Assembly (NCBI GenBank): GCA_041671325.1
Contig: JBAZBR010000006.1
Span: forward strand, 1 to 62,130
Reading direction: 5' to 3'
DNA: 62,130 nt
From: Patescibacteria group bacterium
GTDB lineage: Bacteria; Patescibacteriota; Patescibacteriia; PEXW01
Positions 1,339 through 42,070 of the stretch are shown here, in pieces. The notes beneath the pieces were generated by a model that did not search any database, was not told where the DNA came from, and was given only the letters and a program-made list of their open reading frames with translations. Position numbers and translations under genes: made by a program. Positions within the stretch are counted from its first letter, which is position 1; every line of letters starts with the position of its first letter.

Positions 1339-1384
1339 CAAAAAGCCCTCCCCGCCAAGCATGGGGGTGAGGAGGACAAACAGA
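1339..1384 (-). terminator. Intrinsic terminator, copy 1 of a 46-bp direct repeat
   Basis: Minus-strand hairpin GUCCUCCUC...GGGGAGGGC followed by UUUUU, 4 nt after the stop at 1389; 43/46 identical to 3082..3127. Confidence 0.7.
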
Positions 1385-3081: not shown

Positions 3082-3127
3082 CAAAAAGCCCTCCCCGCCA
3101 AGCATGGGCGTGGGGAGGGCAAACAGA
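3082..3127 (-). terminator. Intrinsic terminator, copy 2 of the 46-bp direct repeat
   Basis: Perfect 9-bp stem GCCCTCCCC/GGGGAGGGC with U-tract on the minus strand, just after the pgi/pmi stop. Confidence 0.75.
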
Positions 3128-13222: not shown

Positions 13223-13279
13223 TATATGCAAATTTATTCGTAGTTCGTATATTCGTATTTTTTTCGTAATTCGTAACCT

Positions 13280-14260: not shown

Positions 14261-14264
14261 TTTT

Positions 14265-15320
14265 ATGAAAAAATTAAGAATCGCCCAAGTCGCGCCTTTG
14301 GCCGAGCGCGTCCCGCCCAAAAAATACGGTGGCACTGAACTGGTCATATACAACCTGATTGAAGGCTTGGTTAAAGAAGGCCACCAGGTTACGCTTTTCG
14401 CTAGGTCGGATTCCAAGACCTCAGCTAAACTCTCGCCGCTTTATCATCCCGACCCTAAAGCCCAAAAACGCTACCAGACTAGAGGCTATATAATTCCTAA
14501 TTACTGGCAAACTTTGGAGTTTGGCCGAGTTTTTGAACACGCCAATCATTTTGATGTCATCCATTTGCATTTGGGCTCGGCTTTTTTCCCCTATACTCGG
14601 CTGATCAAAACGCCTTGCGTTCTGACTTTACACGGCCGGCTGAACACTAAAGAAGCGGCAGTCATCCATAATGCTTATTCGGAAATCCCTTTGGTTTCCA
14701 TTTCCAATAACCAACGCAAACCTTTGACGAATTTAAATTTCATTCGCACGGTTTATAACGGCATTGATTTAAGTAAATTCAAATATGGCACGGGCCACGG
14801 CGGCTATTTGGCTTTTTTGGGGCGCATGAGCCCGGAAAAAGGCCCAGTCCAAGCCATTCAAACAGCCAAGCGGCTTGGCCAAAAACTGATCATGGCCGCC
14901 AAAGTGGATACGGTTGATGAGGAATATTTTACTAAAAAAGTTAAACCTCTGATTGACGGTAAACAAATCATCTTTTTGGGCGAAGTTAATCATCCAAAAA
15001 AGGTTGAATTACTAAAAAATGCTGCTGCACTGCTGGCCCTGATCCAGTGGGAAGAGCCCTTTGGCTTGTTTATGACCGAAGCCATGGCCTGCGGTACGCC
15101 AGTAATTGCCACACGCCGAGGCTCGGTGCCGGAAATCGTTGAACAAGGTAAAACCGGTTTTATGGTGGATAATGTTGCCCAGGCCGTACGAGCAATTAAA
15201 CATTTACCGAAAATTCACCGGCCAGATTGCCGAAAAAGGGTGGAACAATATTTTTCCAAAGATACTATGGTCGCTGGTTATGAGGAAGTGTACTATAAGC
15301 TTATACGCCAGAAAAAATGA
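14265..15320 (+). CDS. GT4 glycosyltransferase, paralog 2
   Basis: LRIAQVAPLAERVPPKKYGGTE, FLGRMSPEKG, WEEPFGLFMTEAMACGTPVI. Confidence 0.9.
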   Translation: MKKLRIAQVAPLAERVPPKKYGGTELVIYNLIEGLVKEGHQVTLFARSDSKTSAKLSPLYHPDPKAQKRYQTRGYIIPNYWQTLEFGRVFEHANHFDVIHLHLGSAFFPYTRLIKTPCVLTLHGRLNTKEAAVIHNAYSEIPLVSISNNQRKPLTNLNFIRTVYNGIDLSKFKYGTGHGGYLAFLGRMSPEKGPVQAIQTAKRLGQKLIMAAKVDTVDEEYFTKKVKPLIDGKQIIFLGEVNHPKKVELLKNAAALLALIQWEEPFGLFMTEAMACGTPVIATRRGSVPEIVEQGKTGFMVDNVAQAVRAIKHLPKIHRPDCRKRVEQYFSKDTMVAGYEEVYYKLIRQKK

Positions 15321-16390
15321 AACCTAAAATCGCCATCTTAGCTTCAAACCTATATCCTATCCCACCCAAAGCCACCAACGCGGCCGAACTGATTGTTTCC
15401 CAAATAACCGAGGGTTTGGTGGCTTTAGGCTACCCAGTGACTCTGTACGCGGCTGGTGATACAAAAACTAAAGCCAGGCTGGTTTCGGTAACGAAAAAAG
15501 CTTCAATTTCGGATCCAAAGATTGGTATGACTAACCACAAAACCTATGAAACCCTTCTGACTTCCCAGGCTTATGCTGACGCTAACCAATGGGGCGCTAA
15601 AATTCTCTTAAGTAATATAGCCATGGTCAGCGCACCATTCGCCAGGTTTGGTAAATTCCCAAGTGTGGCCCTGCTCCACAGCCCACCGACTTTTACGGAT
15701 TCGCAAATCATGCTGGATAATAATAAATTCCAAAAATACATTTCCATTTCCAATGCCCAAAGAAAAGCAGTCAAACATGCCCATTATGTCGGTACGATTT
15801 ATCATGGCGTTGATACCAATAAATTAAAATTTCACCCCCAGGCTGGCAAGTACCTGGCTTTCCTGGGCCGGATCCGTGATTACAAAGGCGTGGTTGAGGC
15901 TATCCAAGTTTCAAAAGCCACTAAAATGCCTTTGAAAATTGCTGGCCCAATTGGCGACCAAAAATATTTCGACAAATTCGTCAAACCCAACCTGAGCAAA
16001 AACATTAAATTTGTTGGCGAAATAAATCATGCTCAAAAAAGCGAATTTTTAGGTAACGCCCTAGCCACGCTTTTCCCAATTGGCTGGGAAGAACCGTTTG
16101 GCTTGGTCGTCCCGGAATCATTGGCCTGCGGTACGCCAGTCGTGGCCTTCAAGCGCGGTTCGGTACCGGAAATTTTAAAAAACCAGAAGACGGGTTATAT
16201 TGTGACCAATGTCAAACAAATGATTAGCGCGGTTAAAAATATTAATAAAATCTCCCGTGTGGTTTGCCGTAAAGAAGCAGAAAAAAGATTTTCCGTAAAC
16301 AGGATGGTTTTGGATTATGCCAAACTTTTAACTCGCCTGACCCGCCCGGCATCGCCTTCGGCTTCAGCCGTTGGCGGACGGGGTAAATAA
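15317..16390 (+). CDS. GT4 glycosyltransferase, paralog 3
   Basis: FLGRIRDYKG and WEEPFGLVVPESLACGTPVV; the YGG loop is replaced by TNA; the C-terminal tail is read through a palindrome. Confidence 0.85.
   Translation: MKPKIAILASNLYPIPPKATNAAELIVSQITEGLVALGYPVTLYAAGDTKTKARLVSVTKKASISDPKIGMTNHKTYETLLTSQAYADANQWGAKILLSNIAMVSAPFARFGKFPSVALLHSPPTFTDSQIMLDNNKFQKYISISNAQRKAVKHAHYVGTIYHGVDTNKLKFHPQAGKYLAFLGRIRDYKGVVEAIQVSKATKMPLKIAGPIGDQKYFDKFVKPNLSKNIKFVGEINHAQKSEFLGNALATLFPIGWEEPFGLVVPESLACGTPVVAFKRGSVPEILKNQKTGYIVTNVKQMISAVKNINKISRVVCRKEAEKRFSVNRMVLDYAKLLTRLTRPASPSASAVGGRGK
16341..16378. repeat. GC-rich palindromic element read as the C-terminal tail of GT4 paralog 3
   Basis: CCGCC-CGGC...GCCG-TT-GGCGG nested stem, translated as RPASPSASAVGGR. 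Confidence 0.45.
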
Positions 16391-23848: not shown

Positions 23849-24955
23849 TTATTGCCTAATTGGCATAACCAGATAACGGAACTTGGTTGGTAATTTGTCG
23901 TGGTCTTTGGGCTCTAAAAGTCCTGGGCTTTTTTCGTCATTCAAGCGCAAGATCACTTCGTCGGTACCTAAAACATTCAGGCCGTCCAGCAAGAACCGCC
24001 AATTAAAAACAATCTTGCCGTCTTTGCCGTCAACACTTGCGGACATTTTTACGTCGCTGGCACCAACCTGGGCGTTGGCCGCTGATAAAATCAGCTCATT
24101 GGTGGTTTGGTAAGTTAAAGTAAAATCATTTATGCCCGAGCGGCAAAACAGGCCTACCTGCCTAAGAACCTTTGAAAAGCCGTCGTTTTCAAAATTTACC
24201 TGGGTGGAAAACTGGCTCGGAATTATTTGGGTATAATCAGGGAACTGGCCTTCAATCAGCCTGGACACCAACTCCACATCCTCAGCAATAAAGCTTATTT
24301 GGTTGTCGCTGATGGTCAGGGTTATATCCCCGGCTTCTGGCGCAACCCTAAGCCATTCTAATAAGCTGCGGTTTGGGACGATAATTTTTTGTTCTTCTTT
24401 GGTGGTAGTTAATTTGGCTTTTGCCTCGGCTAAACGATAACTATCGGTTGCGGCCAAGGTTAAATCCTGGTCTTTTAAATGAAAAAGTACCCCGTTAATT
24501 TCTGGCCTAGCCTCGTCAGAGGCAACCGCAAAAACTGTTTGGCTTAATAGGGTTTTCAAGGTTTTGGCAGGCAAGCTTAGCCTGGCGCCATCCTGAACTT
24601 TTGGTATAACCGGAAAATCCTCGGCAGGTAAACCCTTTAGGGTGGTTTTTGAATCGGAACTGGAAACCATTAATTCCCCATTAACTAATTCAAAAGTAAC
24701 ATTTCCGGGGGGTAATAAATTCAAATAATCCAGAACAACCCTGGCTTGGACCGTAAATTCTCCTGATCTCTCAACTTTTCCACGGACCTGGGTGGTTATG
24801 GCAATTTCCAGGTTTGTTGTTGCTAAAGACACGCCCTCAGCCTCGGCTTTAATCAAGACGTTTTTTAGAATTGGCAGGGTGGTTGAACGGCCAGCAATAT
24901 GGCTAACCATATTTAAACCCCGAGCTAAATTTTCCTGTGTACAAATGAATTTCAT
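23849..24955 (-). CDS. dnaN: DNA polymerase III beta sliding clamp
   Basis: TTLPILKNVL, ATNLEI, ATDSYRL, RLIEGQFPDYTQIIP and YLVMPIR motifs; downstream of dnaA. Confidence 0.97.
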   Translation of the reverse strand: MKFICTQENLARGLNMVSHIAGRSTTLPILKNVLIKAEAEGVSLATTNLEIAITTQVRGKVERSGEFTVQARVVLDYLNLLPPGNVTFELVNGELMVSSSDSKTTLKGLPAEDFPVIPKVQDGARLSLPAKTLKTLLSQTVFAVASDEARPEINGVLFHLKDQDLTLAATDSYRLAEAKAKLTTTKEEQKIIVPNRSLLEWLRVAPEAGDITLTISDNQISFIAEDVELVSRLIEGQFPDYTQIIPSQFSTQVNFENDGFSKVLRQVGLFCRSGINDFTLTYQTTNELILSAANAQVGASDVKMSASVDGKDGKIVFNWRFLLDGLNVLGTDEVILRLNDEKSPGLLEPKDHDKLPTKFRYLVMPIRQ

Positions 24956-25193
24956 AATTTTATATATTTAAAGAGAAGAGGTAGAAGAAGGTGTTGATAA
25001 GTGGATAAATTGTTGTTTGGGCTGTTTTAGTTTTGGTTTTTGAGATATTTACAATGGTTAGGTTGTGGGTAGTTTTAGTAAGGAAAGAGAATAAGTTTTA
25101 AAAAATTGTTTTGAGATATTTTTTACAAAAACTGTAGACAGTTTAGGTTGTGTTGAATTACTTATTAATAACAACCAGCACACATTCTTTTAA
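24956..25193. other. oriC subregion between dnaA and dnaN (AT-rich tract, DnaA-trio-like run, DnaA boxes)
   Basis: TATATATTTA, then GAG AAG AGG TAG AAG AAG (24973..24990), then TGTTGATAA (24992) and AGTGGATAA (25000), each one mismatch from TGTGGATAA. Confidence 0.75.
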
Positions 25194-26573
25194 CTAGTTA
25201 TAAAGCCTCTGCCGAATTAATTTTATGTTTTGTTGGAGTTTTGGATCCTCTTTAACCTGTTTAGAAATCTTTTCCACAGCATGCATTGCGGTTGAATGGT
25301 CGCGACCCCCAAGCTCCTCGCCAATTGTGGGAAAAGAGGCGCTGATTTCCTCACGCATCAAATACATTATCAACTGCCTGGGCCTGACTAATTCTGAACG
25401 CCGGCTTTGGCCTAAAACCTCAGTAACCTTCACGTCGAAAAACTGGCAAACACAGGCAATTATTTGTTTGGGGGTAACTGCGTGCTGTCTTTTGGTTTGG
25501 GCGGCCTGGCTGACTGAGGCTAAGATTTCTTTAATAGAATCAAGGGTTGGCAGGGTCTTGCTTAAGTTGTGGGTAGCCATAATCCGGTTTAAAGCCCCCT
25601 CTAATTCGCGAATATTATCTTGAACTACATTGGCAATATAATTTAAAGACGCATCATCAAGGCTGCAAGATTTTTCCTTGCATTTTGCCCGCAAAATAGC
25701 AATCCTGGTTTCTAAGTCCGGCTCCTGGATATCCGCAATCATTCCCCACTCGAAACGGGAAAGCAGCCGCGCTTCTAAAGCCGCAATTGCTTTGGGTGGC
25801 CGGTCTGATGAGAGGATTATTTGCTTGTTGGTTTGATGCAGGGCGTTAAAGGTATGAAAGAATTCTTCCTGCGTGCCCTCTTTGCCGGCCAAGAACTGGA
25901 CATCATCAACCAGAAGCACCTCCACCGAGCGCCAGCGATCCCGAAAGGCAGTCATTGAACCTTTAAAAATCGCCTGAATAAATTCATTGGTGAAATATTC
26001 ACTGCTGACGTACAAAACCTTGGCCTTAGGTTCTCTCTTCAGAACCTCGTGGCCAATTGCCTGCATTAAATGGGTTTTGCCTAAACCCGCTCCGCCGTAA
26101 ATAAAAAGCGGGTTATAAATCTCACCGGGTTTTTCTGCACAAGCCATTGCCGCGGCCTGGGCCAATTCATTGCCTTTGCCCACGATAAAGTTATCAAATG
26201 TGTATCTTGGATTAAGGCCGGTGGTCTTGGAAATCCCATTCTTACCAGTGGTCTTTGTTTGGGATTCCTCAAGAATTGTTTCTGCGGGAGCGGCGGAAGG
26301 ATTGATTTTGTTTGTTACGCTCTCAACCCGATATTCAATTTCCAGGACTTCGTTTTCCGTAAGGGTCTTAATGGCTCCCAAAATATAATTATGGTATTTG
26401 TTTTCTAACCAGGCTTTAGTAAAGGCGTTGGGAACGCCAACAACAGCCTTATGGCCTTCGACCTGGCTAATAAAAGTATTTTTAAACCAGGTCGTAAAAT
26501 TGGCCTTGCTTAGTTTTAACTCCAGCTCGCCAAGGGTGGCTTGCCAGAGCTTTTCGTTTGGCAGTTTCAGCAT
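25194..26573 (-). CDS. dnaA: Chromosomal replication initiator DnaA
   Basis: Start moved from 26690 to ATG 26573 (MLKLPNEKLWQ); NPLFIYGGAGLGKTHL, LLVDDVQF, QEEFFHTFN, RELEGAL and GGRDHSTAMHA motifs. Confidence 0.98.
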   Translation of the reverse strand: MLKLPNEKLWQATLGELELKLSKANFTTWFKNTFISQVEGHKAVVGVPNAFTKAWLENKYHNYILGAIKTLTENEVLEIEYRVESVTNKINPSAAPAETILEESQTKTTGKNGISKTTGLNPRYTFDNFIVGKGNELAQAAAMACAEKPGEIYNPLFIYGGAGLGKTHLMQAIGHEVLKREPKAKVLYVSSEYFTNEFIQAIFKGSMTAFRDRWRSVEVLLVDDVQFLAGKEGTQEEFFHTFNALHQTNKQIILSSDRPPKAIAALEARLLSRFEWGMIADIQEPDLETRIAILRAKCKEKSCSLDDASLNYIANVVQDNIRELEGALNRIMATHNLSKTLPTLDSIKEILASVSQAAQTKRQHAVTPKQIIACVCQFFDVKVTEVLGQSRRSELVRPRQLIMYLMREEISASFPTIGEELGGRDHSTAMHAVEKISKQVKEDPKLQQNIKLIRQRLYN

Positions 26574-26768
26574 GGTTGAAGCGCCTATATTAATGGGGGT
26601 TTTTAGATAATACCACACAAAAACCCGCAGAAAAACCCACAAAAGTGCATGGTTAGGGAATAAGCTGTGGATTAAATATGGATAACCCAAGCAGTTTTTT
26701 TAAGCTTTGTTTTTTAGGTTTTAAAGTGCTACACTTTGTCTACTTTTCGAATTTCGTATTTAATATAT
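26574..26768. promoter_or_regulatory. oriC/dnaA upstream subregion with DnaA boxes
   Basis: TGTGGATTA (26666..26674) and TATGGATAA (26677..26685), one mismatch each; lies between divergent dnaA and rpmH. Confidence 0.65.
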
Positions 26769-26906
26769 ATGCCAAAACGCACCTATCAACCGAAAAAACG
26801 CAGGCACGCCAGGGTTCACGGGTTTTTAGCCCGAAAAAGAAAGCCCACCGGCCGCAAGGTTTTAAAAGCCAGACGGCACAAAGGCCGGAAGCGCATAGCC
26901 CTTTAA
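26769..26906 (+). CDS. rpmH: 50S ribosomal protein L34
   Basis: Below the ORF-track cutoff; my translation [45 protein letters not shown]. Confidence 0.95.
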
Positions 26907-26916
26907 TTTATTAAAG

Positions 26917-27270
26917 GTGTTAGCCAAAGAATTTAGGTTACACAAAGAAAAAGACATATTAAAAATTTTGCGCATAGGAAGGCGCAGGCGCAATGAGGTT
27001 CTGCAAATAATATATATCCCAGGCCAAGCAATGAACAGCCGCGCCTGCGTAGTTGTCTCCAAAAAAATCACCAAAAAAGCCCACGAAAGAAATAAAATTC
27101 GCAGGCAGATCCAAGCGCTTTTACCAATATATCTAAGAACAACCGAAAGACCCTTGGACATTATTATCAGGGTCAATTCCAGCGCTGGTCTTAAACAAGA
27201 AAATTTTAACCTCTCCCTAAAAAATTTGTGGCCAAACCATGGACAACCCCGCCCAACGCATAACCATTAA
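26917..27270 (+). CDS. rnpA: Ribonuclease P protein component
   Basis: LAKEFRL, VVVSKKITKKAHERNKIRRQI (RNR motif); canonical position. Confidence 0.92.
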   Translation: MLAKEFRLHKEKDILKILRIGRRRRNEVLQIIYIPGQAMNSRACVVVSKKITKKAHERNKIRRQIQALLPIYLRTTERPLDIIIRVNSSAGLKQENFNLSLKNLWPNHGQPRPTHNH

Positions 27271-27532
27271 AATTCTCCGCTTTTACCAACTCACGCTTTC
27301 CCCTGACCATAGTTGGGTTAGGGCTAGGCGGCTGGTTGGTGCTTGTCGTTTCCAACCAACCTGCTCGGATTATGCAATCCAAGCCATTGAAAGATTTGGC
27401 TTGGCTCGAGGCGGCTGGTTAGCTGTAAAAAGACTGGCGCGATGTAATCCTTTTAATCATGGCGGCTATGATCCGTGCCCAGCTGGACATTCTAATAACC
27501 CGCAAGGGTTTATCTTAGGCAATAAGAATTAG
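27239..27532 (+). CDS. yidD: Membrane protein insertion efficiency factor YidD
   Basis: CRFQPTCSDYAIQAIERFG...RLARCNPFNHGGYDP. Confidence 0.93.
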   Translation: MDNPAQRITIKILRFYQLTLSPDHSWVRARRLVGACRFQPTCSDYAIQAIERFGLARGGWLAVKRLARCNPFNHGGYDPCPAGHSNNPQGFILGNKN

Positions 27533-27535
27533 CAT

Positions 27536-28336
27536 ATGCATATTTTCGTTGTTATTCTTTACGATCCCCTCTTCAATGGCTTGATGTTTTTGCAAAAATA
27601 TGTTCCTGGGCATGATTTGGGCGTTGCTATAATTTTAGTAACCTTAATAATTAAAGGCTTGCTGTTTTGGCCGTCTTTGTCCGCCATTCACAATCAGCAG
27701 AAAATGCAGGAAATTCAGCCTAAATTAAAAGAGCTGCAGGCAAAATATAAAGACAACAAGGAAGAGCTTTCTCGGCAGCTCATGGCTTTTTATAAAGTCC
27801 ATAAAGTCAACCCATTTTCTTCTTGTCTCCCCCTGCTGTTGCAGCTGCCAATTTTAATTGCTTTATACCGGGTGTTCTTCTCCGGAATTAACATTGACGC
27901 CGCTACCCACCTTTTTAACGCTGACCAGCTTTCCCACCTTTACCCATTCTTGCGTTCGTTCTTTGAGCACACCCAGGTCAGCACCACCTTTCTTGGCTTT
28001 TTAAATTTAACAGCTAAACATAATGTTATCCTGGCTTTATTAGCGGGCGCAGCCCAGTTCTGGCAATCCAAGATGATGATGAGCAAAAAACCACCAAAAG
28101 TTCCGGGCATGAAAGAAGACGGCGCTAAAGATGAGCAAATAACCTCGATCATGACCACGCAGATGACCTATTTGCTGCCAGCCATGACCGTAGTGTTTGG
28201 CTACCAGTTCCCAGCCGGCCTCTCGCTTTATTGGGTGTTTTCAACCTTGTTCCAAGTTGCCCAGCAATATTATTATTTAAAATGGCATAAGCCGAAAATG
28301 GCCGCCAAATCTCAAGAAGTTTTGCCAAAACCATAA
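27536..28336 (+). CDS. yidC: YidC/Oxa1 membrane protein insertase (short form)
   Basis: KMQEIQPKLKELQAKYK, NPFSSCLPLLLQLPIL, FPAGLSLYW. Confidence 0.95.
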   Translation: MHIFVVILYDPLFNGLMFLQKYVPGHDLGVAIILVTLIIKGLLFWPSLSAIHNQQKMQEIQPKLKELQAKYKDNKEELSRQLMAFYKVHKVNPFSSCLPLLLQLPILIALYRVFFSGINIDAATHLFNADQLSHLYPFLRSFFEHTQVSTTFLGFLNLTAKHNVILALLAGAAQFWQSKMMMSKKPPKVPGMKEDGAKDEQITSIMTTQMTYLLPAMTVVFGYQFPAGLSLYWVFSTLFQVAQQYYYLKWHKPKMAAKSQEVLPKP

Positions 28337-33699: not shown

Positions 33700-33921
33700 T
33701 TAAGAAAGGACCTTTGGGTCAATGTCTATGAAGACGCATAGACTCTTGCCCGTTTGAACCACCTCAATTTGGCCGCAGAACTGGCCATCTTCTAAACGCA
33801 AGGTTGTTGGCGGATTGGTTTGAGGGGTTATCAGGGCCAGCAATTTTTTGCCCATAATCACCTGAGCGGCGAGTGAGGTCTTATTGGGCTGGCCCAGTGA
33901 GGCTGTGGAAATGCTACCCAT
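33700..33921 (-). CDS. Small hypothetical protein
   Basis: 73 aa from ATG 33921; SD GAGGTG; hairpin downstream near 33650..33680. Confidence 0.45.
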   Translation of the reverse strand: MGSISTASLGQPNKTSLAAQVIMGKKLLALITPQTNPPTTLRLEDGQFCGQIEVVQTGKSLCVFIDIDPKVLS

Positions 33922-34039
33922 AATCACCACCTCTTTCTTGGGTTTAAAGCCCTTTATATTGAAAGAAAACGGGAGGTTTAATGAGCGCTTTGGGTAAGCA
34001 GAAGTATTATCCTTTCAAAAAATTTGGTCAAGCCATTGA

Positions 34040-34144
34040 CCCCGCACCACTTTCTATAAAATCACTCCTTAATATTTTAGGATATTTAGTAAAACAATGA
34101 CTTAATTAATAAAATTAAATATTTGCTTAGAAAGTGGTGCGGGG
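34040..34144. mobile_element. MITE-like element copy 1 (105 bp, 17-bp TIRs, TTGA flanks)
   Basis: CCCCGCACCACTTTCTA...TAGAAAGTGGTGCGGGG; TTGA at 34036..34039 and 34145..34148; AT-rich non-coding interior. Confidence 0.75.
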
Positions 34145-34203
34145 TTGACAGAAAAACGTAATCTTGTTAGGGTCTCAAAGGCTAAAATAAAAAGAGGTGC
34201 CCA

Positions 34204-34587
34204 ATGAGCAGAAGAAAGAAAGGTAACCGTAAGGATGCGGACACCCCAGTAAAAAACCTAGTCATGATTTTGAAGCTTTTCCCAAAAAGTGAAAAACGAT
34301 CAAGACTAGTAAGGAATTTTGTAAACCTGTGTTTTAACTACTATTTTTGGTATCAGGTTAACGAAGGCCAGCTTGACGGAATCAATATTCCAGAATCCGG
34401 TAAACGTCGAAAAGAAATCCACGACCAGATAATGGAAATTATCGCCAAACTGTTTTTACAGCCAGACGCCGAAAAAGTTTTTGGTGGACCGGTGCCTGAC
34501 CGCTTTATGGTAAGGCAAATTATCGTTGAACACTGCCAAAAATATGGAAAAAAACGCAAGGCCAAACCCGCAGAGCCGCTTACATGA
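34204..34587 (+). CDS. Hypothetical helical protein, paralog of 34603..35046
   Basis: SD AGAGGT; FVNLCFNY, IHDQIMEIIAKL and PDRFMV match the neighbour. Confidence 0.65.
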   Translation: MSRRKKGNRKDADTPVKNLVMILKLFPKSEKRSRLVRNFVNLCFNYYFWYQVNEGQLDGINIPESGKRRKEIHDQIMEIIAKLFLQPDAEKVFGGPVPDRFMVRQIIVEHCQKYGKKRKAKPAEPLT

Positions 34588-34602
34588 ATAAGCGGTTCTT
34601 TT

Positions 34603-35046
34603 TTATATAGTTAAACGTTGCAACATTTTTTCAACAGTTTTTCGGTCCTGGAGTTTTGCAAGCAACCCATAATTCTTTTTTGGCCAATCCTTAATAACAA
34701 TTAATTTTCTAAGGGTTTCCATTATCTCATTGTGGATAACCGATTTATGACTATCGGGCGATGAACTTGACTTTCTTCGGTAATTTTCCCCACCAGTAGT
34801 ATTTTGTTGGTATTTATAACTCTCAGTTTGATATTGTCGGCACAATTGGACAAACCTATCTCTGGCCCTATCTGTCCCAAATAAAGACAATAATTGCTCC
34901 CATTCATTAGCCAGTTCATTTGCTTCTGTTTCCAAATCAAGCTGCGTGTTTAGAGTATCTGCATGAAGCCTGTTGGTGTGTCGATCGAATTTAGCCTGAT
35001 TGACTATGGGACTTTCTTCAATTGGAAAAGTTATTCTTTCGCCCAT
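34603..35046 (-). CDS. Hypothetical helical protein, paralog of 34204..34587
   Basis: Starts 4 nt after the valS stop; FVQLCRQY, IHNEIMETLRKL and QDRKTV. Confidence 0.65.
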   Translation of the reverse strand: MGERITFPIEESPIVNQAKFDRHTNRLHADTLNTQLDLETEANELANEWEQLLSLFGTDRARDRFVQLCRQYQTESYKYQQNTTGGENYRRKSSSSPDSHKSVIHNEIMETLRKLIVIKDWPKKNYGLLAKLQDRKTVEKMLQRLTI

Positions 35047-35050
35047 AATT

Positions 35051-37648
35051 TTACTTAGTTAATTGTTTAAGTTTGAACTTTGCTTCGGCTAATTTCTTTT
35101 TTTCATTATCCACCACCACAGTCGGGGCATTTTTGGTGAATTGGGAATTTTTCAGTTTATTTTCCTGGGCTTTGATATAGTTTTTAAGATTGCTGACTTC
35201 TTTGTGTAAATGTTCCAAGCTGGCTTCGGGCAATTCCAACCAGAAGTTAACCCCAGCTTCATGGCCATGGGCCTTGCGTTCTAATTTAGCAGTCGGCACT
35301 AAAATTGCTCGAGCTAAAATTTCAATAATACCCTTATCGACCATCAAGGCTTTAGTTGCTGAACCGGTTATGTAAACTGGGACTTTTTCTTGAGGGGTAA
35401 TTTTGTGGACAGCTCGGGAATTGCGGATGGCAATAATTAACTTTTGGATTTTCAGAAATTCCTTGTCTGCCCCAGGCTTAATTTTTTTAGTCTTTGGCCA
35501 ATCGGAAATCATCAACTGGGTTTTTTTATTATGTCTTTGCCACAGGCTTTCGGTAATGAAGGGTGCAAAAGGATGCAGAAGTTTTAAGCAACTTTGGAAA
35601 ACCCCCAACAAGACCTTGGAATTTGGCTGGATTTTTTGGATTTCCACGTACCAATCAGCCAAGTCATGCCAGATAAAATCATATAAAGCTTGGCCCGCAT
35701 CGGAAAATCTAAACTTATTAAGATGTTCGGTCACTTGGTTTACTAAAATTTGTTGTTTGTGGAGTATCCACTGGTCAGCCAACGAACTCCCACCACCCCG
35801 CCCTGCGGGCACCCCTCCTCCACCGCCATTGCGGGGCAGGCGGGCAGGAGGGGAGGTTCTTGCTGGGGCCGAGTTTATTTGTCGGTCAACAAAATTACCA
35901 ATGTTCCATACTTTATTAATAAAGTTTCGATAGCCAGCGATTTTTTCTTCGCTTAACCTGAAGTCTTGGCCAGCCGTGGTGCCCAAGACCAAGCTCAAAC
36001 GGATAGCGTCAGTACCGTATTTTTCAGCCATGGGCAAAGGGTCAATGCCCGTACCTTTGGACTTGGACATTTTCTTGCCATCCTTGTCCAAAACCAGTCC
36101 ATGGATAAACACGGTTTTAAAAGGCACTTCATGAGCGAATTTTAAGGAGAACATGATCATCCTGGCCACCCAGAAGAACAGAATATCCCAAGCAGTTTCC
36201 ATGACAGCCGTGGGGTGGAAGGTTTTTAAATCTTTGGTTTTGTTGGGCCAGCCCAAAGTGGAAAAAGTCCAGAGTCCAGAAGAAAACCAGGTATCCAAAG
36301 TGTCTTGGTCTTGAATAAAATGCGTGCCGCCGCAAGTCTGACATTTATTAGGCGCCAGCGTGGCCGCGACTGGTGCGCAAGTCTTGCCCTTTTTTAAATT
36401 ATCTTGGCAATACCAAACCGGGATCTGGTGGCCCCACCAAAGTTGGCGGGAAATGCACCAGTCGCGGATATTTTTCATCCAGTGGAAATAAATTTTTTCA
36501 AAGCGTTCTGGCACGAACTTGATTTTGTCGGCTTTAACCGCGGCCAAGGCGGGTTTGGCCAAAGGCGCGATTTTCAAAAACCATTGTTTGGAAACCAAGG
36601 GCTGGACAATGGAACCGCATCTATCACAATGCGGCACGCTGGAGGTGTAGGGCTCAATCTTGATTAATAGGTGTTTTGCCTGCAAATCAGCAATGATTCT
36701 GTCCCGAGCCTGGCTGACCAACAGACTAGCGTATTTACCAGCCGATCCAGTCATCCGGTTGTCCTCACCAACTACTTGCTTGATTGGCAGTTTGTGGCGT
36801 TCCCCCATTTCCCAATCAGCCGGATCATGGGCAGGCGTAACTTTCACTACCCCAGTGCCGAATTTGGGATCCACTAACCTGTCGGCAATCACGGGCAAAG
36901 TTAAAGATCCAGATTCGGTTTCAAAAGTGATTTTTTTGCCAACGTATTTTTTATATCTGGGATCTTTAGGATTGACTGCCAAAGCTGTATCCCCGACCTT
37001 GGTCTCCGGCCGAGTGGTAGCCACGCTGAAGGGGCCGTATTTAATATAGTAAAGATGGCCAGGCGTATCTTTGTGCTTCACTTCCAAATCTGACAAAGCG
37101 GTTTGGCAACGGGTGCACCAATTAATCAGTCTTTCGCCGCGGTAGATCAAACCCTCATTAAATAAAGTTATAAAAGCTTTTTGCACGGCCTGAGTTAAAT
37201 TCGGGTCCATGGTAAAGTGTTCGCGCGACCAATCACAAGAAGCGCCCAGGGAACGGATTTGGTCAGTGATGCGCGTGCCGTATTTTTGTTTCCACGCCCA
37301 GACGTGCTTTAAAAAAGTTTCTCGGCCAATTTCGTGTCGGCTAATGCCCTCAGTCTGTAACAACCTTTCCACCAGAATTTGCGTGGCAATGCCGGCATGG
37401 TCAGTGCCTGGCAACCATAAGGTTTTTTCGCCGAGCATGCGGTGATAACGGGTTAAAATATCTTGGATGGTTATCCCAGTGGCATGGCCCAAATGTAATT
37501 CGCCAGTGACATTGGGCGGAGGCATGCTAATGGAGAAAGCTTTTTTTCTGCGGCCTGGGAGTTTGTCAGGATTAAAATAGCCAGACGCTTCCCAGCGCTT
37601 GTAAATCGGCTCTTCAATGCCTAAATGGTTGTATGCTTCGTTACCCAT
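35051..37648 (-). CDS. valS: Valine--tRNA ligase
   Basis: PPPNVTGELHLGHA, DWCISRQLWWGHQIP, GKKMSKSKG and C-terminal coiled coil. Confidence 0.98.
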   Translation of the reverse strand: MGNEAYNHLGIEEPIYKRWEASGYFNPDKLPGRRKKAFSISMPPPNVTGELHLGHATGITIQDILTRYHRMLGEKTLWLPGTDHAGIATQILVERLLQTEGISRHEIGRETFLKHVWAWKQKYGTRITDQIRSLGASCDWSREHFTMDPNLTQAVQKAFITLFNEGLIYRGERLINWCTRCQTALSDLEVKHKDTPGHLYYIKYGPFSVATTRPETKVGDTALAVNPKDPRYKKYVGKKITFETESGSLTLPVIADRLVDPKFGTGVVKVTPAHDPADWEMGERHKLPIKQVVGEDNRMTGSAGKYASLLVSQARDRIIADLQAKHLLIKIEPYTSSVPHCDRCGSIVQPLVSKQWFLKIAPLAKPALAAVKADKIKFVPERFEKIYFHWMKNIRDWCISRQLWWGHQIPVWYCQDNLKKGKTCAPVAATLAPNKCQTCGGTHFIQDQDTLDTWFSSGLWTFSTLGWPNKTKDLKTFHPTAVMETAWDILFFWVARMIMFSLKFAHEVPFKTVFIHGLVLDKDGKKMSKSKGTGIDPLPMAEKYGTDAIRLSLVLGTTAGQDFRLSEEKIAGYRNFINKVWNIGNFVDRQINSAPARTSPPARLPRNGGGGGVPAGRGGGSSLADQWILHKQQILVNQVTEHLNKFRFSDAGQALYDFIWHDLADWYVEIQKIQPNSKVLLGVFQSCLKLLHPFAPFITESLWQRHNKKTQLMISDWPKTKKIKPGADKEFLKIQKLIIAIRNSRAVHKITPQEKVPVYITGSATKALMVDKGIIEILARAILVPTAKLERKAHGHEAGVNFWLELPEASLEHLHKEVSNLKNYIKAQENKLKNSQFTKNAPTVVVDNEKKKLAEAKFKLKQLTK
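35788..35855. repeat. Palindromic element inserted in frame in valS
   Basis: CCACCCCGCCCTGCGGGCACCCCTCCT-[26 nt GC-rich]-AGGAGGGG; far more GC-rich than the rest of the gene. Confidence 0.75.
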
Positions 37649-37797
37649 ATGACGATAGCTGATTTTACTCTCAATACGGTAATTTTACCAGTCTTTAGCG
37701 GATTAAACCAAGTCAACCACTCTATTCCCGTGTTGGATTGACTTTCGTGCTTGTTTTAAATAGGCTATTATCAAGCAAAACCAAAAGGAGAAATAGC

Positions 37798-38007
37798 ATG
37801 GCCTCGGACATACTCGGGTTTCAACCTTATGGTCGGCTTAAGACATTAAGGTTTTACCAAAACGCTTATCAAAACCAGTTAGCCAATGCGCCTCTTACTA
37901 AGAAAGAGAGGAAACATATTGAGCTTTGTTTGGCTGAAGTTAAAAGAGAGTTAAAAGAACTCAATGCGGCTCTGCGTGCAATAAAAAAGAAACAGGTGGA
38001 GGAATGA
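37798..38007 (+). CDS. Small coiled-coil hypothetical protein
   Basis: Start moved from 37738 to ATG 37798 (SD AAAGGAG; promoter TTGACT-17-TAGGCT). Confidence 0.55.
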   Translation: MASDILGFQPYGRLKTLRFYQNAYQNQLANAPLTKKERKHIELCLAEVKRELKELNAALRAIKKKQVEE

Positions 38008-38246
38008 AAATGTTAAAACAGATCTTTCTAGGCATAACCTCGGTAGTTTTTCTAGGACTTGCAGCTGTTCTTCTCTGTTTTTGCGCAGGATTTGGAATAC
38101 CTCTCGTGGGGTTTATTGCTTACAGGCTTATTCAGGGTAACGAAAACTTCCTCAGCCTATTTCTGAGTAGCCTGGGTGTCGCGAGTATATTCTTACTAGC
38201 ACGTTTATCTTTTTATGTGTTTGAAAAAGCTTGTGATGCCACGTAA
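38004..38246 (+). CDS. Small two-TM hypothetical protein
   Basis: 80 aa; ATGA overlap with the previous stop; terminator AAACACCCG/CGGGTGTTT follows. Confidence 0.55.
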   Translation: MKMLKQIFLGITSVVFLGLAAVLLCFCAGFGIPLVGFIAYRLIQGNENFLSLFLSSLGVASIFLLARLSFYVFEKACDAT

Positions 38247-38287
38247 TTTTAAAAACACCCGTGAATTTAGGCGGGTGTTTTCCTTTA

Positions 38288-38410
38288 CCCCCTCTCCCTT
38301 TGGGAGAGGGTATCCCGCCGAATGGCGGGAGGGGTGAGGGTTACTCGGAATTATTAGGAAAATTATTAATCAACCTCACCCTCAATCCCTCTCCTTTATA
38401 GGAGAGGGGG
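38288..38410. repeat. REP-doublet-like palindromic element with a nested hairpin
   Basis: CCCTCTCCC-TTT-GGGAGAGGG...GGGGTGAGGG and inverse CCTCACCCTCAATCCCTCTCC-TTTATA-GGAGAGGG; nested TCCCGCC-GAAT-GGCGGGA at 38313..38330. Confidence 0.75.
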
Positions 38411-38436
38411 AAATTCACAAATCAGGTTTTATTAAT

Positions 38437-39468
38437 TTATCTCCCCAGCTCCCAGACTGGATTGATCTTCAAAGTCTGCCAATGGGATTTTTGGTTATTT
38501 AAAATTTCAAAATAACCAGCCGAGGCAATCATAGCGCCGTTGTCAGTGGTATAAGCTTGGGGCGAGACGAACAATTCAAAGCCATTATGGTGTAAAGTTT
38601 CTTGCAAATCAGTCCTTAATTTTTCATTAGCCGCCACGCCGCCACCCAATAAAACACTTTTAGGTTTTAATTTAAGAGCGGCTTTTAAGGTTTTACCGAC
38701 CAAGACCTCCGCAATTGCGGCTTGGACTGAAGCGGCTAAATTTGCCCGAGCCTGGAAATCCAAACTTGGTTTATCACGTAAATAATACATGACTGAAGTT
38801 TTCAAGCCCGCAAAACTAAATTCAAAATTATCTTCATCCAACATTGGTCGGGGCAAGTCAATTACGGGTTTCCCCTTTTCTGCCAGCTCGGCAATTTCTG
38901 GACCGCCAGGATAAGGTAGTCCAATCAGCTTGGCAGTTTTGTCAAAAGCCTCGCCAGCCGCATCATCCCGAGTTTTGCCAATTAACTTGGTAGATTTCCA
39001 AGAGTGGTTCTTGGGATTTTCTGAAAGCCAAAGCAATTCCGTATGGCCGCCGGAAACCACCAAAGCCAAGGCTGGGAGCGCAGGAATTTTTTCGGCTAAC
39101 CAACAGCTAGCTAAATGCCCGGCAATGTGGTTGACGCCATATAAAGGAATGCCCGTGGCAAAACTTAAAGTCCGGGCGGTTTCCACGCCCACCATCAAAG
39201 CCGTGGCCAAACCCGGTCCAGCCGTGACTGCAATGGCATCAATACCTTTCAAGGCCAAACCGGATTTTTTTAAAGAGCCAATCAAGGTCGGGATGATTGT
39301 AGCCGCATGTTCCCTGGCGGCAACTTCAGGAACCACGCCCCCGGTTTTTTGATGGATCAAGATTTGCGAAGCCGTGACGCAACTTAAAACTGCCAGTTTT
39401 TTCTTTTCGGCTTTGACCACCGCAATTGAAGTGTCATCACAACTGGTTTCAATCCCTAATATAATCAT
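38437..39468 (-). CDS. tsaD: t6A biosynthesis protein TsaD
   Basis: LGIETSCDDT, GGVVPEVAAREH, VNHIAGH, SGGHT, DDAAGEAFDK and TDNGAMIA motifs. Confidence 0.97.
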   Translation of the reverse strand: MIILGIETSCDDTSIAVVKAEKKKLAVLSCVTASQILIHQKTGGVVPEVAAREHAATIIPTLIGSLKKSGLALKGIDAIAVTAGPGLATALMVGVETARTLSFATGIPLYGVNHIAGHLASCWLAEKIPALPALALVVSGGHTELLWLSENPKNHSWKSTKLIGKTRDDAAGEAFDKTAKLIGLPYPGGPEIAELAEKGKPVIDLPRPMLDEDNFEFSFAGLKTSVMYYLRDKPSLDFQARANLAASVQAAIAEVLVGKTLKAALKLKPKSVLLGGGVAANEKLRTDLQETLHHNGFELFVSPQAYTTDNGAMIASAGYFEILNNQKSHWQTLKINPVWELGR

Positions 39469-39607
39469 TTATTTAGCATAATCTATTTAGCAATGAATAT
39501 TTTTGGTCTTCCGCCAGAGGCGGACCCCGCAGTATAGCTGGGCTATGCCTAAAATATCCATATTCTAAGACTAGCATATTTGAAAATTGGCTTAGAAACA
39601 GGGTTGA

Positions 39608-39710
39608 TCCCGCACCACTTTCTAAGCAAATATAAAATAATTAATCAGATTATTATTTTGCTGAATATTCAAAAATTAGATAAATGATTTTTATAGAAAG
39701 TGGTGCGGGA
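39608..39710. mobile_element. MITE-like element copy 2 (103 bp, inverted relative to copy 1)
   Basis: TCCCGCACCACTTTCTA...TAGAAAGTGGTGCGGGA; TTGA at 39604..39607 and 39711..39714. Confidence 0.75.
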
Positions 39711-39790
39711 TTGACAGAATAGGGGTTTATATTTAAGCTTTTGCTATAAAATAAAAAACAGTACTTGAAAAACAACAAGGAGGTTTTTTC

Positions 39791-40312
39791 GTGGTTCAAA
39801 GCTCGTTAAAAAAGCCAAGAATTGTCAGGGTATACCGGGCAATAATCTGGGGCCGACGTTTTGAAGAAGCATCTGAAGCTGGGGTTGAATATTTGTTATT
39901 TCAACGTTCCCGCACAGTCCACTTCCCGAATATGTGGGAATGCCTTGGCGCTACGCCTGAACCAGACGAAAAAGATAAGGCAAAATTCATTTTGCCTAAG
40001 GGCAGTTGGGCCGAAGCCGGCATTAAGATAAGCAAGATCCAAACCGAGGTATTCCGTTTCCAAAGGAAGATTGCAAACTGGCCTGGAAGTCGGTACAACG
40101 GCTATGATTTTTATGAATCGGTTTACTACTTGGTCGATTGTGCCACCATCAGAGGAATTGATTTGTGCCCCCAACACCGTGGTTCTGGTTGGTTCCCCCT
40201 CCCGGCAATTCTTGCTCTAAAACCGGTTTTACGGGAAAGTACTTTTCAAGCGTTCCTGGCTTTAAAAAAAATTGACCTTTCCAAGTACCAAGTCAATTCC
40301 AAACACCACTAA
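39791..40312 (+). CDS. NUDIX-fold protein with degenerate Nudix box
   Basis: YLLFQRS...FPNMWECLG, EAGI and H...GWF frame the fold; the RExxEE core is missing; SD AAGGAGGT before GTG. Confidence 0.55.
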   Translation: MVQSSLKKPRIVRVYRAIIWGRRFEEASEAGVEYLLFQRSRTVHFPNMWECLGATPEPDEKDKAKFILPKGSWAEAGIKISKIQTEVFRFQRKIANWPGSRYNGYDFYESVYYLVDCATIRGIDLCPQHRGSGWFPLPAILALKPVLRESTFQAFLALKKIDLSKYQVNSKHH

Positions 40313-41536: not shown

Positions 41537-41633
41537 TAAATATTTATTAAAGTAATACCGAAGACTTCGCTGTTTTTTCATTTTGGCTATTGACCATAAC
41601 CTAACAATAAGGCAGTATTCATTTTGTATTCAC

Positions 41634-41750
41634 GGCCCTATCGTCTAACGGTTAGGCCCGCCCGCCGAAGCTTCGCTTCAGGCGAAGCGGGCGGGACATT
41701 CGCTTTTTCCCGCCATTTGGCGGGACCGTGCCGTACGGCGGGGCAAGCCG
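41634..41750 (+). pseudogene. Decayed 5' half of tRNA-Glu interrupted by two palindromic inserts
   Basis: First 23 nt identical to the intact tRNA; 39-nt hairpin insert; ACATTCGCTTTT; about 35-nt hairpin insert; CAAGCCG; no T-arm. Confidence 0.75.
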
Positions 41751-41759
41751 CCAAACTAT

Positions 41760-42017
41760 ATGTTTACTGTTTATATTATTAAGAGTTTAAAGGTGAAAAG
41801 ATATTATGTTGGCGTTGCCGAAGATGTAAGTGATCGTATTGCCCAACACAACCAAGGCAAAGTCCGTTCGACAAAGGCTTTTACTCCTTATAAGCTTATT
41901 CATACAGAATCCTTTCAAACTCTTTCACAAGCAAGAGCACAAGAAAGTAAGATTAAACGCTCTGGTCATATCGAGCGCTATCTAAAGAATTTTATGGCCC
42001 TATCGTCTAACGGTTAG
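41760..42017 (+). CDS. Small standalone GIY-YIG nuclease family protein
   Basis: VYII...YYVG...R...HN.G...TK...P..L...E.F.....A...E..IK pattern; last residues MALSSNG-stop are read from the tRNA 5' end. Confidence 0.88.
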   Translation: MFTVYIIKSLKVKRYYVGVAEDVSDRIAQHNQGKVRSTKAFTPYKLIHTESFQTLSQARAQESKIKRSGHIERYLKNFMALSSNG

Positions 42018-42070
42018 GACATCGGCTTTTCAAGCCGGTAATCGGGGTTCGATCCCCCGTGGGGCTACCA
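41996..42070 (+). tRNA. tRNA-Glu (anticodon TTC)
   Basis: 75-nt cloverleaf: acceptor GGCCCTA/TGGGGCT, D-stem GTCT/GGAC, anticodon loop TTTTCAA, T-loop GGTTCGAT, encoded CCA. Confidence 0.92.

What the first reader, a model, noticed from the sequence alone, without database searches (positions are those of the whole stretch)
34036..39716. Miniature inverted-repeat element that sits in the -35 box of promoters
Seen: two 103-105-bp non-coding elements with perfect 17-bp TIRs and related AT-rich interiors, in opposite orientations. Both are flanked on each side by TTGA on the plus strand, so TTGA behaves as a 4-bp target duplication and not as part of one end. In both, the right TTGA continues as TTGACAGAA with a -10-like hexamer 17 nt later (TAGGGT 34168; TAAGCT 39734) ahead of an SD-led orphan. 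The terminal base pair covaries (C/G versus T/A). Both lie in divergent intergenic regions. No transposase is in the window. Inference: a non-autonomous element that targets sigma70 -35 hexamers and rebuilds them, staying neutral or retuning divergent promoters; the inverted pair could also flip the 5.5-kb valS-tsaD segment.
Basis: partly seen in the sequence, partly recalled or inferred. Interest (0 to 1): 0.72.

Follow-up and report, generated by a model that had tools for sequence, protein, structure and literature searches.

The report
Small transposon lodged in promoter -35 boxes
Two copies of a roughly 105-bp non-coding mobile element sit exactly inside the TTGACA "-35" box of two promoters in an uncultured Patescibacteria (CPR) genome, and because insertion duplicates TTGA the promoter is rebuilt, a pattern repeated at about a dozen other promoters in related metagenomic genomes.

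Summary
El1 (34040-34144) and El2 (39608-39710) are inverted copies of one element with perfect 17-bp terminal inverted repeats, each flanked by a direct TTGA. An orthologous contig (L143) has the El1 site empty, with a single TTGA in the same TTGACAGAA-N14-TAGGGT promoter. That shows a 4-bp target duplication inside a conserved -35 hexamer.

Scans found about 25 distinct copies, all in CPR-type contigs:
- 11 have clean TTGA/TTGA flanks, and the TTGA strand is independent of the interior orientation.
- 12 of 14 copies with TTGA(C) on one side have TANNNT 16-18 nt after the hexamer. Among intergenic TTGA sites the rate is 12% (P about 6e-9 when computed on the first 13).
- A third copy lies just outside the window, at the typA promoter.

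No transposase was found in the window or in any held locus, so the partner and the IS family remain unknown. Whether the element actively targets promoters or simply prefers TTGAC and survives there is unresolved. No inversion of the valS-tsaD segment was seen.

Seven of the 17 arm positions covary. The El2 site is occupied in relatives down to 80% TsaD identity, with arms still perfectly paired.

I rate it a new variant of a known kind (MITE), with no precedent in the papers I searched for this target choice or this phylum.

The parts
34036..34039 (+). Left copy of the 4-bp target duplication (TTGA) of El1
   Evidence: the orthologous empty site in L143 has a single TTGA.
34040..34144 (+). 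El1, a 105-bp non-coding element. The 17-bp arms are 34040-34056 and 34128-34144. The A end (..CTATAAAA) is on the left and the B end (AAGCAAATA) on the right.
   Evidence: As single-stranded DNA it folds at -21.6 kcal/mol, z -6.7.
34145..34173 (+). Rebuilt promoter: TTGACA (34145-50; its first 4 bases are the right copy of the duplication), a 17-nt spacer, then TAGGGT (34168-73)
   Evidence: Both hexamers are conserved in L143 while the spacer differs.
34204..34587 (+). 127-aa gene served by that promoter; no Pfam family; 122-aa orthologue in L143
34003..34031 (-). Divergent promoter TTGACC-17-AATACT for the 76-aa gene 33700-33930(-). Its -35 box is 5 bp from the other -35 box in the empty-site relative and 113 bp away here.
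39604..39607 (+). Left copy of the target duplication (TTGA) of El2
39608..39710 (+). El2, a 103-bp copy in the opposite interior orientation to El1. The arms are 39608-39624 and 39694-39710, with terminal pair T/A.
   Evidence: An identical copy is present in Logan contig L141.
39711..39739 (+). Rebuilt promoter: TTGACA (39711-16), a 17-nt spacer, then TAAGCT (39734-39)
   Evidence: The TTGACA next to the element is kept in the orthologous spacers of L142 and L143.
39791..40312 (+). 173-aa diverged NUDIX-family gene served by that promoter
38437..39468 (-). tsaD, the divergent neighbour of El2. Its own promoter region lies between the gene and the element.
50672..50700 (-). Unoccupied site of the same type: GGGG-TTGACAGAA, with TAAGTT 17 nt after the hexamer. 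It is one of at least 11 unoccupied promoter-like TTGAC sites in the window.

Best explanation
El1 and El2 are copies of a non-autonomous cut-and-paste transposon (a MITE) that circulates in Patescibacteria/CPR genomes.

Shown:
- It is about 100-107 bp long, with 17-bp terminal inverted repeats and an AT-rich interior that has a small central hairpin. It has no coding capacity in the window copies.
- Insertion duplicates 4 bp of target.
- The preferred target is TTGA within TTGAC(A), which is the sigma-70-type -35 hexamer.
- After insertion the downstream copy of TTGA, joined to the original CA, restores TTGACA at the native 17-nt distance from the -10 box. The core promoter survives and only the upstream DNA is pushed about 109 bp away.

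Inferred:
- A transposase supplied in trans (not found) binds the 17-bp ends and makes a 4-bp staggered cut at TTGA.
- Copies accumulate in -35 boxes for two reasons. The transposase prefers that sequence. In these compact genomes, insertions there are among the few that break nothing.
- The two arms of each copy are kept complementary, either by transposase recognition of each sub-family's ends or by hairpin-templated correction.
For: - Anatomy and copy number.
- Empty site with one TTGA in the same promoter, ahead of the orthologous gene.
- 25 metagenome loci plus 3 contigs of a Kerfeldbacteria MAG carry copies. They give 23 distinct copies, plus the L151 copy and the degenerate L142 copy.
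- 11 copies have clean TTGA/TTGA flanks. Other 4-bp duplications (TAAA/TAAA, TTTA/TTTA) show that the repeat comes from the target and is not part of the element.
- The TTGA strand is independent of interior orientation, 7 to 6.
- Downstream genes of different copies are unrelated.
- TANNNT lies 16-18 nt after the hexamer in 11 of 13 copies, against 5.4% of all TTGA sites and 12% of intergenic TTGA sites (P = 8e-13 and 6e-9). C follows TTGA in 11 of 13, against 21%. A 14th copy in the same genome gives TTGACG-16-TACTCT ahead of typA.
- Independent hits in one spacer: El1 sits at the rightward -35 box, a solo arm abuts the leftward -35 box in L154/L155, and L143 has neither.
- No long-range arm pairs in any held locus and no Pfam transposase in 40 window ORFs.
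Against: - No transposase with matching ends was found, so the chemistry (DDE staggered cut) is inferred only from the inverted repeats plus the target duplication.
- The two window -10 hexamers match TATAAT at only 3 of 6 positions and were not called by the generic promoter scan. No transcription data exist.
- About 7 copies lack a clean duplication (L133, L130, L125, L126, L122, L128, L143). Three of these have one extra base between the arm and TTGAC.
- The El2 site is filled in every relative down to 80% TsaD identity. The arms there are still perfectly paired and differ at two positions on both sides. A neutral relic would not be expected to look like that.
- The L136 sub-family uses TTTA/TAAA and sits inside genes.
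- Enrichment over intergenic TTGAC, about 39% of which look like promoters, is weaker than over all TTGA (my estimate P about 3e-4).
Confidence: 0.72

Rival explanations
1. Active promoter homing. The transposase recognises promoters as such, for example through RNA polymerase holoenzyme, a sigma-region-4-like DNA-binding domain, or the DNA geometry of promoters. On this reading the TTGAC sequence preference alone does not explain the pattern.
For: Copies are enriched at sites with a correctly spaced -10 box even relative to intergenic TTGA and, by my estimate, relative to intergenic TTGAC (11 of 12 against 39%). The same spacer or the same -35 box has been hit more than once in related lineages.
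Against: At least 26 promoter-like TTGAC-17-TANNNT sites in the same loci are unoccupied, 11 of them in the window. Two TTGA copies have no -10 partner. A sub-family inserts at TTTAC inside pilin genes, which fits a short sequence preference. The 'intergenic' background came from a crude ORF mask.
Confidence: 0.15
2. A host-selected regulatory module. On this reading the palindrome is kept because it does something at promoters. It might be a binding platform just upstream of the -35 box, a cruciform or insulator between divergent promoters, or a site that places genes under one regulator.
For: At the El2 locus the element persists across genomes with 80-86% TsaD identity. The interior has diverged almost to noise, yet the arms stay perfectly paired with changes on both sides. 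Across copies, 7 of 17 arm positions covary. Many copies sit between divergent genes.
Against: Orientation is random relative to the promoter and the served genes are unrelated. Most promoters lack the element. One orthologue has lost half an arm without loss of the locus (L142). The covariation can equally come from sub-family inheritance or from hairpin-templated correction of quasi-palindromes. No candidate binding protein was identified.
Confidence: 0.1
3. Mobile, but not by a staggered DDE cut. The candidates are a single-strand HUH transposase of the IS200/IS605 type, which inserts 3' of a tetranucleotide (TTAC or TTGAT by recall), or a site-specific recombinase with a TTGA core. Under either, the second TTGA would belong to the element.
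For: The whole element folds into one long hairpin as single-stranded DNA. Arm complementarity is maintained. The target is a fixed tetranucleotide that resembles the ISDra2 target TTGAT, which I cite from memory only.
Against: HUH elements insert in one orientation relative to the target strand, whereas here orientation is 7 to 6. The flanking repeats change together (TAAA/TAAA, TTTA/TTTA, TCA(T)/TCA(T)), as expected for a duplication. IS200/IS605 ends are subterminal hairpins without inverted terminal repeats.
Confidence: 0.08

Closest known systems
Prokaryotic MITEs in general (class II non-autonomous elements; reviews PMC10969869 and PMC11602168)
   Same: Small size (about 100 bp), terminal inverted repeats, target-site duplication, multiple copies, mostly intergenic, no coding capacity, and presence/absence differences between relatives.
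   Different: The target is the first four bases of the -35 hexamer, and the duplication restores the promoter. The host is the candidate phyla radiation. Neither review mentions such a target or Patescibacteria.
Correia elements (CREE/NEMIS) of Neisseria
   Same: About 100-150-bp inverted-repeat elements that sit just upstream of genes and affect promoters; they can lie between divergent genes.
   Different: Correia elements carry their own promoter parts and an IHF site (PMC10969869) and, by recall, duplicate TA. Here the promoter lies wholly in the flank and pre-exists (empty site). The duplication is TTGA, and there is no sequence similarity.
Insertion sequences that create hybrid promoters through an outward -35 box in their end (for example IS1, IS2, IS257, ISEcp1; review PMC9330008; the element names are from recall)
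   Same: A mobile element end lies directly next to a -35 hexamer.
   Different: In those cases the -35 box belongs to the element and pairs with a fortuitous -10 box. Here the -35 box belongs to the target and is regenerated by the duplication.
Safe-haven or site-specific transposons (Tn7 at attTn7; IS elements that target REP sequences, e.g. ISPpu9, PMC12288879; Ty3 at Pol III start sites, by recall)
   Same: The choice of insertion site minimises damage to the host.
   Different: Those use dedicated target-selection proteins or bridge RNAs and different sites. Here only a short sequence preference is shown, and the site is a promoter element itself.
IS1380, IS5 and IS701 families (4-bp duplications; IS1380 ends begin CC; from memory of ISfinder tables)
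   Same: A 4-bp duplication, and ends that begin CC/TC.
   Different: No transposase was found and no end-sequence comparison was possible, so this is a lead only.

Membership tests
MITE (non-autonomous class II transposon) | Short (under about 600 bp) with no transposase gene | tested here: met
   The elements are 103-105 bp. No ORF of 40 aa or more lies within them except a 48-aa TTG ORF that overlaps El2.
MITE (non-autonomous class II transposon) | Terminal inverted repeats | tested here: met
   Perfect 17-bp arms in both window copies and in 16 of 23 distinct copies.
MITE (non-autonomous class II transposon) | Target-site duplication, verified against an empty site | tested here: met
   The window has TTGA on each side of El1. 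The L143 orthologue has one TTGA and no element.
MITE (non-autonomous class II transposon) | Several copies at unrelated loci | tested here: met
   Three copies lie in this contig. About 25 distinct copies were found overall, with unrelated neighbouring genes.
MITE (non-autonomous class II transposon) | A cognate autonomous element with the same ends | tested here: inconclusive
   No arm pairs 0.5-3 kb apart occur in any held locus. No Pfam transposase was found in 40 window ORFs. Whole genomes could not be scanned for distant arm pairs.
Correia / CREE | TA duplication, 26-bp ends, internal IHF site and element-borne promoter parts | tested here: not met
   The duplication is TTGA and the ends are 17 bp with a different sequence. 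Both promoter hexamers lie outside the element.
REP/BIME with RAYT | 20-40-bp imperfect palindromes with a GTAG head, no duplication, usually downstream of genes | tested here: not met
   The unit is about 105 bp with a 4-bp duplication and lies upstream of genes. There is no GTAG head.
IS200/IS605-derived palindromic elements (PATE) | Insertion 3' of a fixed tetra- or pentanucleotide, in one orientation, without duplication or terminal inverted repeats | tested here: not met
   Orientation is 7 to 6 relative to the TTGA strand. The flanking repeats vary together. Perfect terminal repeats are present.
Integron attC site | Core sites RYYYAAC ... GTTRRRY at the ends of an imperfect palindrome | tested here: not met
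   The ends read CCCCGCACC...GGTGCGGGG. The right junction GTTGACA or ATTGACA does not fit GTTRRRY.
IS1380 / IS5 / IS701 (as source family) | Family-specific DDE transposase and matching end sequences | not testable with these tools
   Only the 4-bp duplication and the CC start of the ends agree with recalled family tables. No transposase or reference ends were available.
Known RNA family (Rfam) | A match at the gathering score | tested here: not met
   The only matches are sub-threshold hits to generic miRNA hairpin models, 28-35 bits against 89-200 required.

The most novel reading that the evidence does not exclude
The element homes to promoters as such. Its unknown transposase would read the -35 hexamer much as sigma region 4 does, or would use RNA polymerase-bound DNA. 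Some copies would then have been taken over by the host as promoter-upstream modules. That would explain why the El2 copy keeps perfectly paired, co-varying arms across genomes that differ by 20% in TsaD, and why a sub-family supplies new leader peptides to pilin genes.
Probability: 0.15. Interest if true: 0.85.

Novelty: new variant of a known kind. Interest (0 to 1): 0.66.

Why it matters
If the reading is right, this is a transposon whose preferred landing site is the -35 box itself, and whose own target duplication repairs that box. That would be a compact 'safe haven' strategy not described for bacterial elements in the literature I could search.

- It gives a natural system for asking how promoters tolerate replacement of everything upstream of -35.
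- It shows how back-to-back divergent promoters behave when pulled about 110 bp apart.
- It shows that CPR bacteria, whose genomes are small and thought poor in mobile DNA, host an active or recently active MITE family shared between distant lineages.
- The copies also mark real promoters in organisms that cannot be cultured, which helps define their -10 and -35 consensus.

Tried and rejected
- **Genome-collection scan with the 16-mer.** 111 of 114 loci were single chance hits or an unrelated Nostoc repeat. Only three contigs of one Kerfeldbacteria MAG were real.
- **Other collections.** Viral contigs gave 0 hits. Plasmid and phage collections gave only AT-rich noise.
- **Rfam.** No family matched.
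- **Homologues of the 127-aa protein.** Only the query itself was returned.
- **Closest TsaD and PilB relatives.** P0002 and P0130 have no DNA available.
- **Orientation of the L143 copy relative to El2.** The interiors are too diverged to call it: flipped 12, same 7, null 7.5 +/- 2.4. I therefore could not decide between one old insertion and repeated insertion.
- **G-rich tract upstream of the target (GGGR-TTGA).** Considered as extra specificity and dropped, because unoccupied promoters show it as well.
- **L087 407-aa ORF between two copies.** Considered as a transposase; it is a FabH-like ketoacyl synthase.
- **attC, REP, Correia and IS200/IS605 readings.** Rejected on defining features (see the membership test).
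- **Literature.** Searches for the arm sequence, for MITEs in CPR bacteria and for TTGACA-targeting elements found nothing relevant.
Full report
**Observation.** El1 spans 34040-34144 and El2 spans 39608-39710. Each ends in a perfect 17-bp inverted repeat (C/TCCCGCACCACTTTCTA). The 16-mer core occurs four times in the window and nowhere else, against 0.5 expected. The interiors are AT-rich, related, and in opposite orientation: opposite ends share 30 nt at 93% and 21 nt at 100%. Both copies are bracketed by TTGA on the + strand, and both right-hand TTGAs continue as TTGACAGAA. TAGGGT (34168) and TAAGCT (39734) lie 17 nt after the hexamer. El1 lies between a 76-aa gene on the minus strand and a 127-aa gene on the plus strand. 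El2 lies between tsaD (-) and a 173-aa gene (+).

**Is TTGA a target duplication?** Yes. TsaD homologues led to an orthologous 100-kb contig with 80% TsaD identity and the same gene order (L143). At the El1 position L143 reads ..TGTCAAGGTTC-TTGACAGAA-tgcctagattctgt-TAGGGT.., followed by the orthologue of the 127-aa gene. The window reads ..GGTCAAGCCA-TTGA-[El1]-TTGACAGAA-aaacgtaatcttgt-TAGGGT... L143 has one TTGA and no element, and the window has two TTGAs around the element. Both promoter hexamers are conserved while the spacer differs. This is a textbook empty site, and it also serves as a phylogenetic footprint of the promoter.

**Other copies.** The 16-mer scan of genome contigs gave mostly chance hits. 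Three contigs of the MAG 'Candidatus Kerfeldbacteria bacterium CG08_land_8_20_14_0_20_43_14' carry true paired copies. A paired-arm scan of metagenome contigs gave 25 loci. After dereplication there are 23 distinct copies. A third copy from the window's own contig lies just beyond the window end (L151 15899-15999), and a degenerate copy is present in L142.

The flanks break down as follows:
- Eleven copies have clean TTGA/TTGA flanks (TCAA/TCAA on the other strand).
- Two have TAAA/TAAA or TTTA/TTTA, and one has TTCA/TTTA.
- Three copies of a sub-family with TCCCC ends have TCA(T) or TGA(T) on both sides.
- About seven have no clean repeat. Two of these have mismatched arms and look like recombinants between copies (L130, L126).

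The TTGA strand is independent of interior orientation, 7 to 6. Genes next to different copies are unrelated. The TTGA is therefore target DNA and does not belong to the element, and the copies are independent insertions.

**Association with promoters.** Thirteen distinct copies have TTGA on one side. In 11 of them the next base is C, and six read TTGACA. Eleven have TANNNT 16-18 nt after the hexamer, ten of them at exactly 17: TAGGGT, TAAGCT, TACAAT, TATAAT, TAAGTT twice, TAGTCT, TATTTT, TATACT and TATTAT. The background rate is 5.4% for all TTGA in the same loci and 12% for TTGA outside long ORFs, giving P = 8e-13 and 6e-9. The extra copy in L151 adds TTGACG-16-TACTCT ahead of typA/bipA, again in a divergent spacer.

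Against intergenic TTGAC, of which about 39% look like promoters, the enrichment is weaker but still present (my estimate about 3e-4). Many promoter-like TTGAC sites are unoccupied. Eleven of these are in the window, including GGGG-TTGACAGAA-17-TAAGTT at 50700-50672 on the minus strand. The generic E. coli-type scan does not call the two window promoters, because their -10 hexamers match TATAAT at only 3 of 6 positions. It does call the divergent TTGACC-17-AATACT promoter at 34031-34003.

**History of the two window sites.**
- El1 is absent from L143. In relatives with 82% PilB identity (L154/L155), the same spacer carries a solo arm, CCCAGCACCACTTTT. It abuts the -35 box of the leftward promoter with one base between, and the DNA beyond it is rearranged. 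The spacer has therefore been hit at least twice, at two different -35 boxes.
- The El2 site is occupied in every relative down to 80% TsaD identity. L142 has a copy with half an arm deleted and C/G ends.
- L143 has a full copy whose arms (TCCCGCAGCACTTTCCA) differ from El2 at two positions on both sides and remain perfectly paired. The TTGACA next to the NUDIX-like gene is kept, while the other duplicate has decayed to TTAA or TTGT.
- In relatives at 66-68% identity the NUDIX-tsaD spacer is 157 or 69 bp and has no element.
- The interiors are too diverged to tell whether the L143 copy is the same insertion or a new one.

**Arms.** Across the 23 copies the repeat is sharply 17 bp long, and 7 of the 17 positions show changes on both sides. 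Cells that form a standard pair are 98.2%, against 90.9% in shuffles and 43-56% when the partner is slid. This could reflect three things: sub-families with their own ends, hairpin-templated correction of quasi-palindromes, or selection on a DNA hairpin or cruciform. The data do not decide between these. The whole unit folds as single-stranded DNA at -22 to -27 kcal/mol, z -6.7 to -9.2. Many copies share a small central hairpin, AAGATATT..AATATCTT.

**What it is not.**
- No Rfam family matches.
- Nothing similar was found in phage, plasmid or viral collections.
- The defining features of Correia elements, REP/BIME, IS200/IS605-type palindromic elements and integron attC sites are not met (see the membership test).
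- No transposase was found. There are no distant arm pairs in any held locus and no Pfam transposase in 40 window ORFs.
- The source family is unknown. The 4-bp duplication and the CC start of the ends recall IS1380-type elements, but that is memory and was not tested.

**Host.** The window is part of ENA contig ERZ27249449 k141_712465, 145 kb. The nearest named relative is labelled 'Candidatus Parcubacteria bacterium' (78% PilB). The Kerfeldbacteria MAG that carries copies with identical arms has a PilB only 58% identical. The family is therefore either old or moves between CPR lineages.

**Mechanism.** Shown: the element is mobile, it makes a 4-bp duplication, the preferred target is TTGA within TTGAC(A), and the duplication restores the hexamer at the native distance from the -10 box. 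Inferred: a trans-acting transposase makes a staggered cut, and copies persist because the core promoter is untouched. Unresolved: whether promoters are recognised beyond the short sequence, and whether any copy has acquired a host function.

In the empty-site relative the two divergent -35 boxes are 5 bp apart and form a 9-bp inverted repeat, TTCTGTCAA-N5-TTGACAGAA. El1 moves them 113 bp apart, which could uncouple the pair. No expression data exist. The suggested inversion of the 5.5-kb valS-tsaD block has no support, because order and orientation are the same in all relatives examined.

**Literature.** Two recent surveys of prokaryotic MITEs describe elements that carry promoters or IHF sites. 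Neither mentions insertion into -35 boxes or Patescibacteria (PMC10969869 and PMC11602168). Searches for the arm sequence, for TTGACA-targeting elements and for MITEs in the candidate phyla radiation found nothing relevant.

**Verdict.** It is a MITE, so a known kind of element. Its target choice, the self-repair of the promoter and the host phylum are new as far as I could check.

Noticed in passing
L136 2416-2519 and 5464-5568 (JGI Ga0210051_1014539): Two copies of a sub-family sit inside the 5' ends of type IV pilin-like genes, exactly after the Phe codon of the prepilin cleavage motif. The target is TTTA in GGC-TTT-ACG. The old start codon is cut off. Each element supplies an in-frame ATG and a 22-codon leader that ends ..KSGAG and is read through the right arm: MMGFRKKVNNQRKRLLVKSGAG|FSMLEILV and MNFNRKNINNQHEKLFLKSGAG|FTLIEVIV. 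The element appears to rebuild the pilin N-terminus.
   Followed up: partly
L136 2033-2135: A third copy in the same pilus cluster has the duplication TAAA, which overlaps the stop codon of the prepilin peptidase gene. The stop codon is also regenerated.
   Followed up: partly
window 50420-50665 (-): Downstream of the unoccupied TTGACAGAA-17-TAAGTT promoter lies about 220 nt of non-coding sequence. It folds into a long rod-like hairpin (-86.9 kcal/mol, z -6.7) and ends in a terminator-like stem ahead of a 107-aa gene. No Rfam match was found. It is a candidate small RNA, with a shape like 6S RNA or SRP RNA.
   Followed up: partly
window 41629-42070: The first 24-28 nt of tRNA-Glu (41996-42070) are duplicated at 41629-41656 (93%). 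The duplicate is followed by a GC-rich hairpin and an 85-aa GIY-YIG ORF (41760-42017) that runs into the intact tRNA. This looks like the footprint of a small mobile endonuclease gene next to the tRNA.
   Followed up: no
window 1339-1384 and 3082-3127: A 46-bp GC-rich hairpin sequence (CAAAAAGCCCTCCCCGCCAAGCATGGG.GTG.GGAGG.CAAACAGA) occurs twice in direct orientation at 93% identity. The two copies bracket a 529-aa ORF with no Pfam family (1389-2978, minus strand).
   Followed up: no
L143 13525-13593 (reverse strand): The empty-site relative has two back-to-back -35 boxes that form a perfect 9-bp inverted repeat, TTCTGTCAA-GGTTC-TTGACAGAA. This may also be an operator for a dimeric regulator of the divergent small genes.
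   Followed up: no
L154 about 3610-3640, and L155: A solo arm, CCCAGCACCACTTTT, abuts the leftward promoter's -35 box in the El1-orthologous spacer, and the sequence beyond it is rearranged. This is evidence that copies are truncated and take part in rearrangements.
   Followed up: partly
window 39505-39530: A small hairpin upstream of tsaD (GGGGTCCGCCTCTGGCGGAAGACC on the minus strand) is conserved in L142 and L146 although the surrounding spacer has diverged. It is possibly a 5' leader structure.
   Followed up: no
window 23849-28336: dnaN (23849-24955, -), dnaA (25194-26690, -) and yidC (27536-28336, +) lie together, so the window probably contains the chromosomal replication origin region.
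   Followed up: no
window 12155-16390, also 6551 and 60818: Tandem paralogous genes share blocks at 65-82% nucleotide identity. One shared motif (GAAGCCATGGCCTGC..CCAGT.AT.GCC) recurs in the group-1 glycosyltransferase genes at 5549-6820 and 60002-61069. This points to a cluster of duplicated glycosyltransferases.
   Followed up: no
L001, L007, L009 and other Nostoc loci: The 16-mer also lies within an unrelated repeat of Nostoc genomes (GACTCGGATTCACCCGCACCACTTTCTAGCT..). It has imperfect partners 180-350 bp away. This is a different repeat family that happens to share the word.
   Followed up: no
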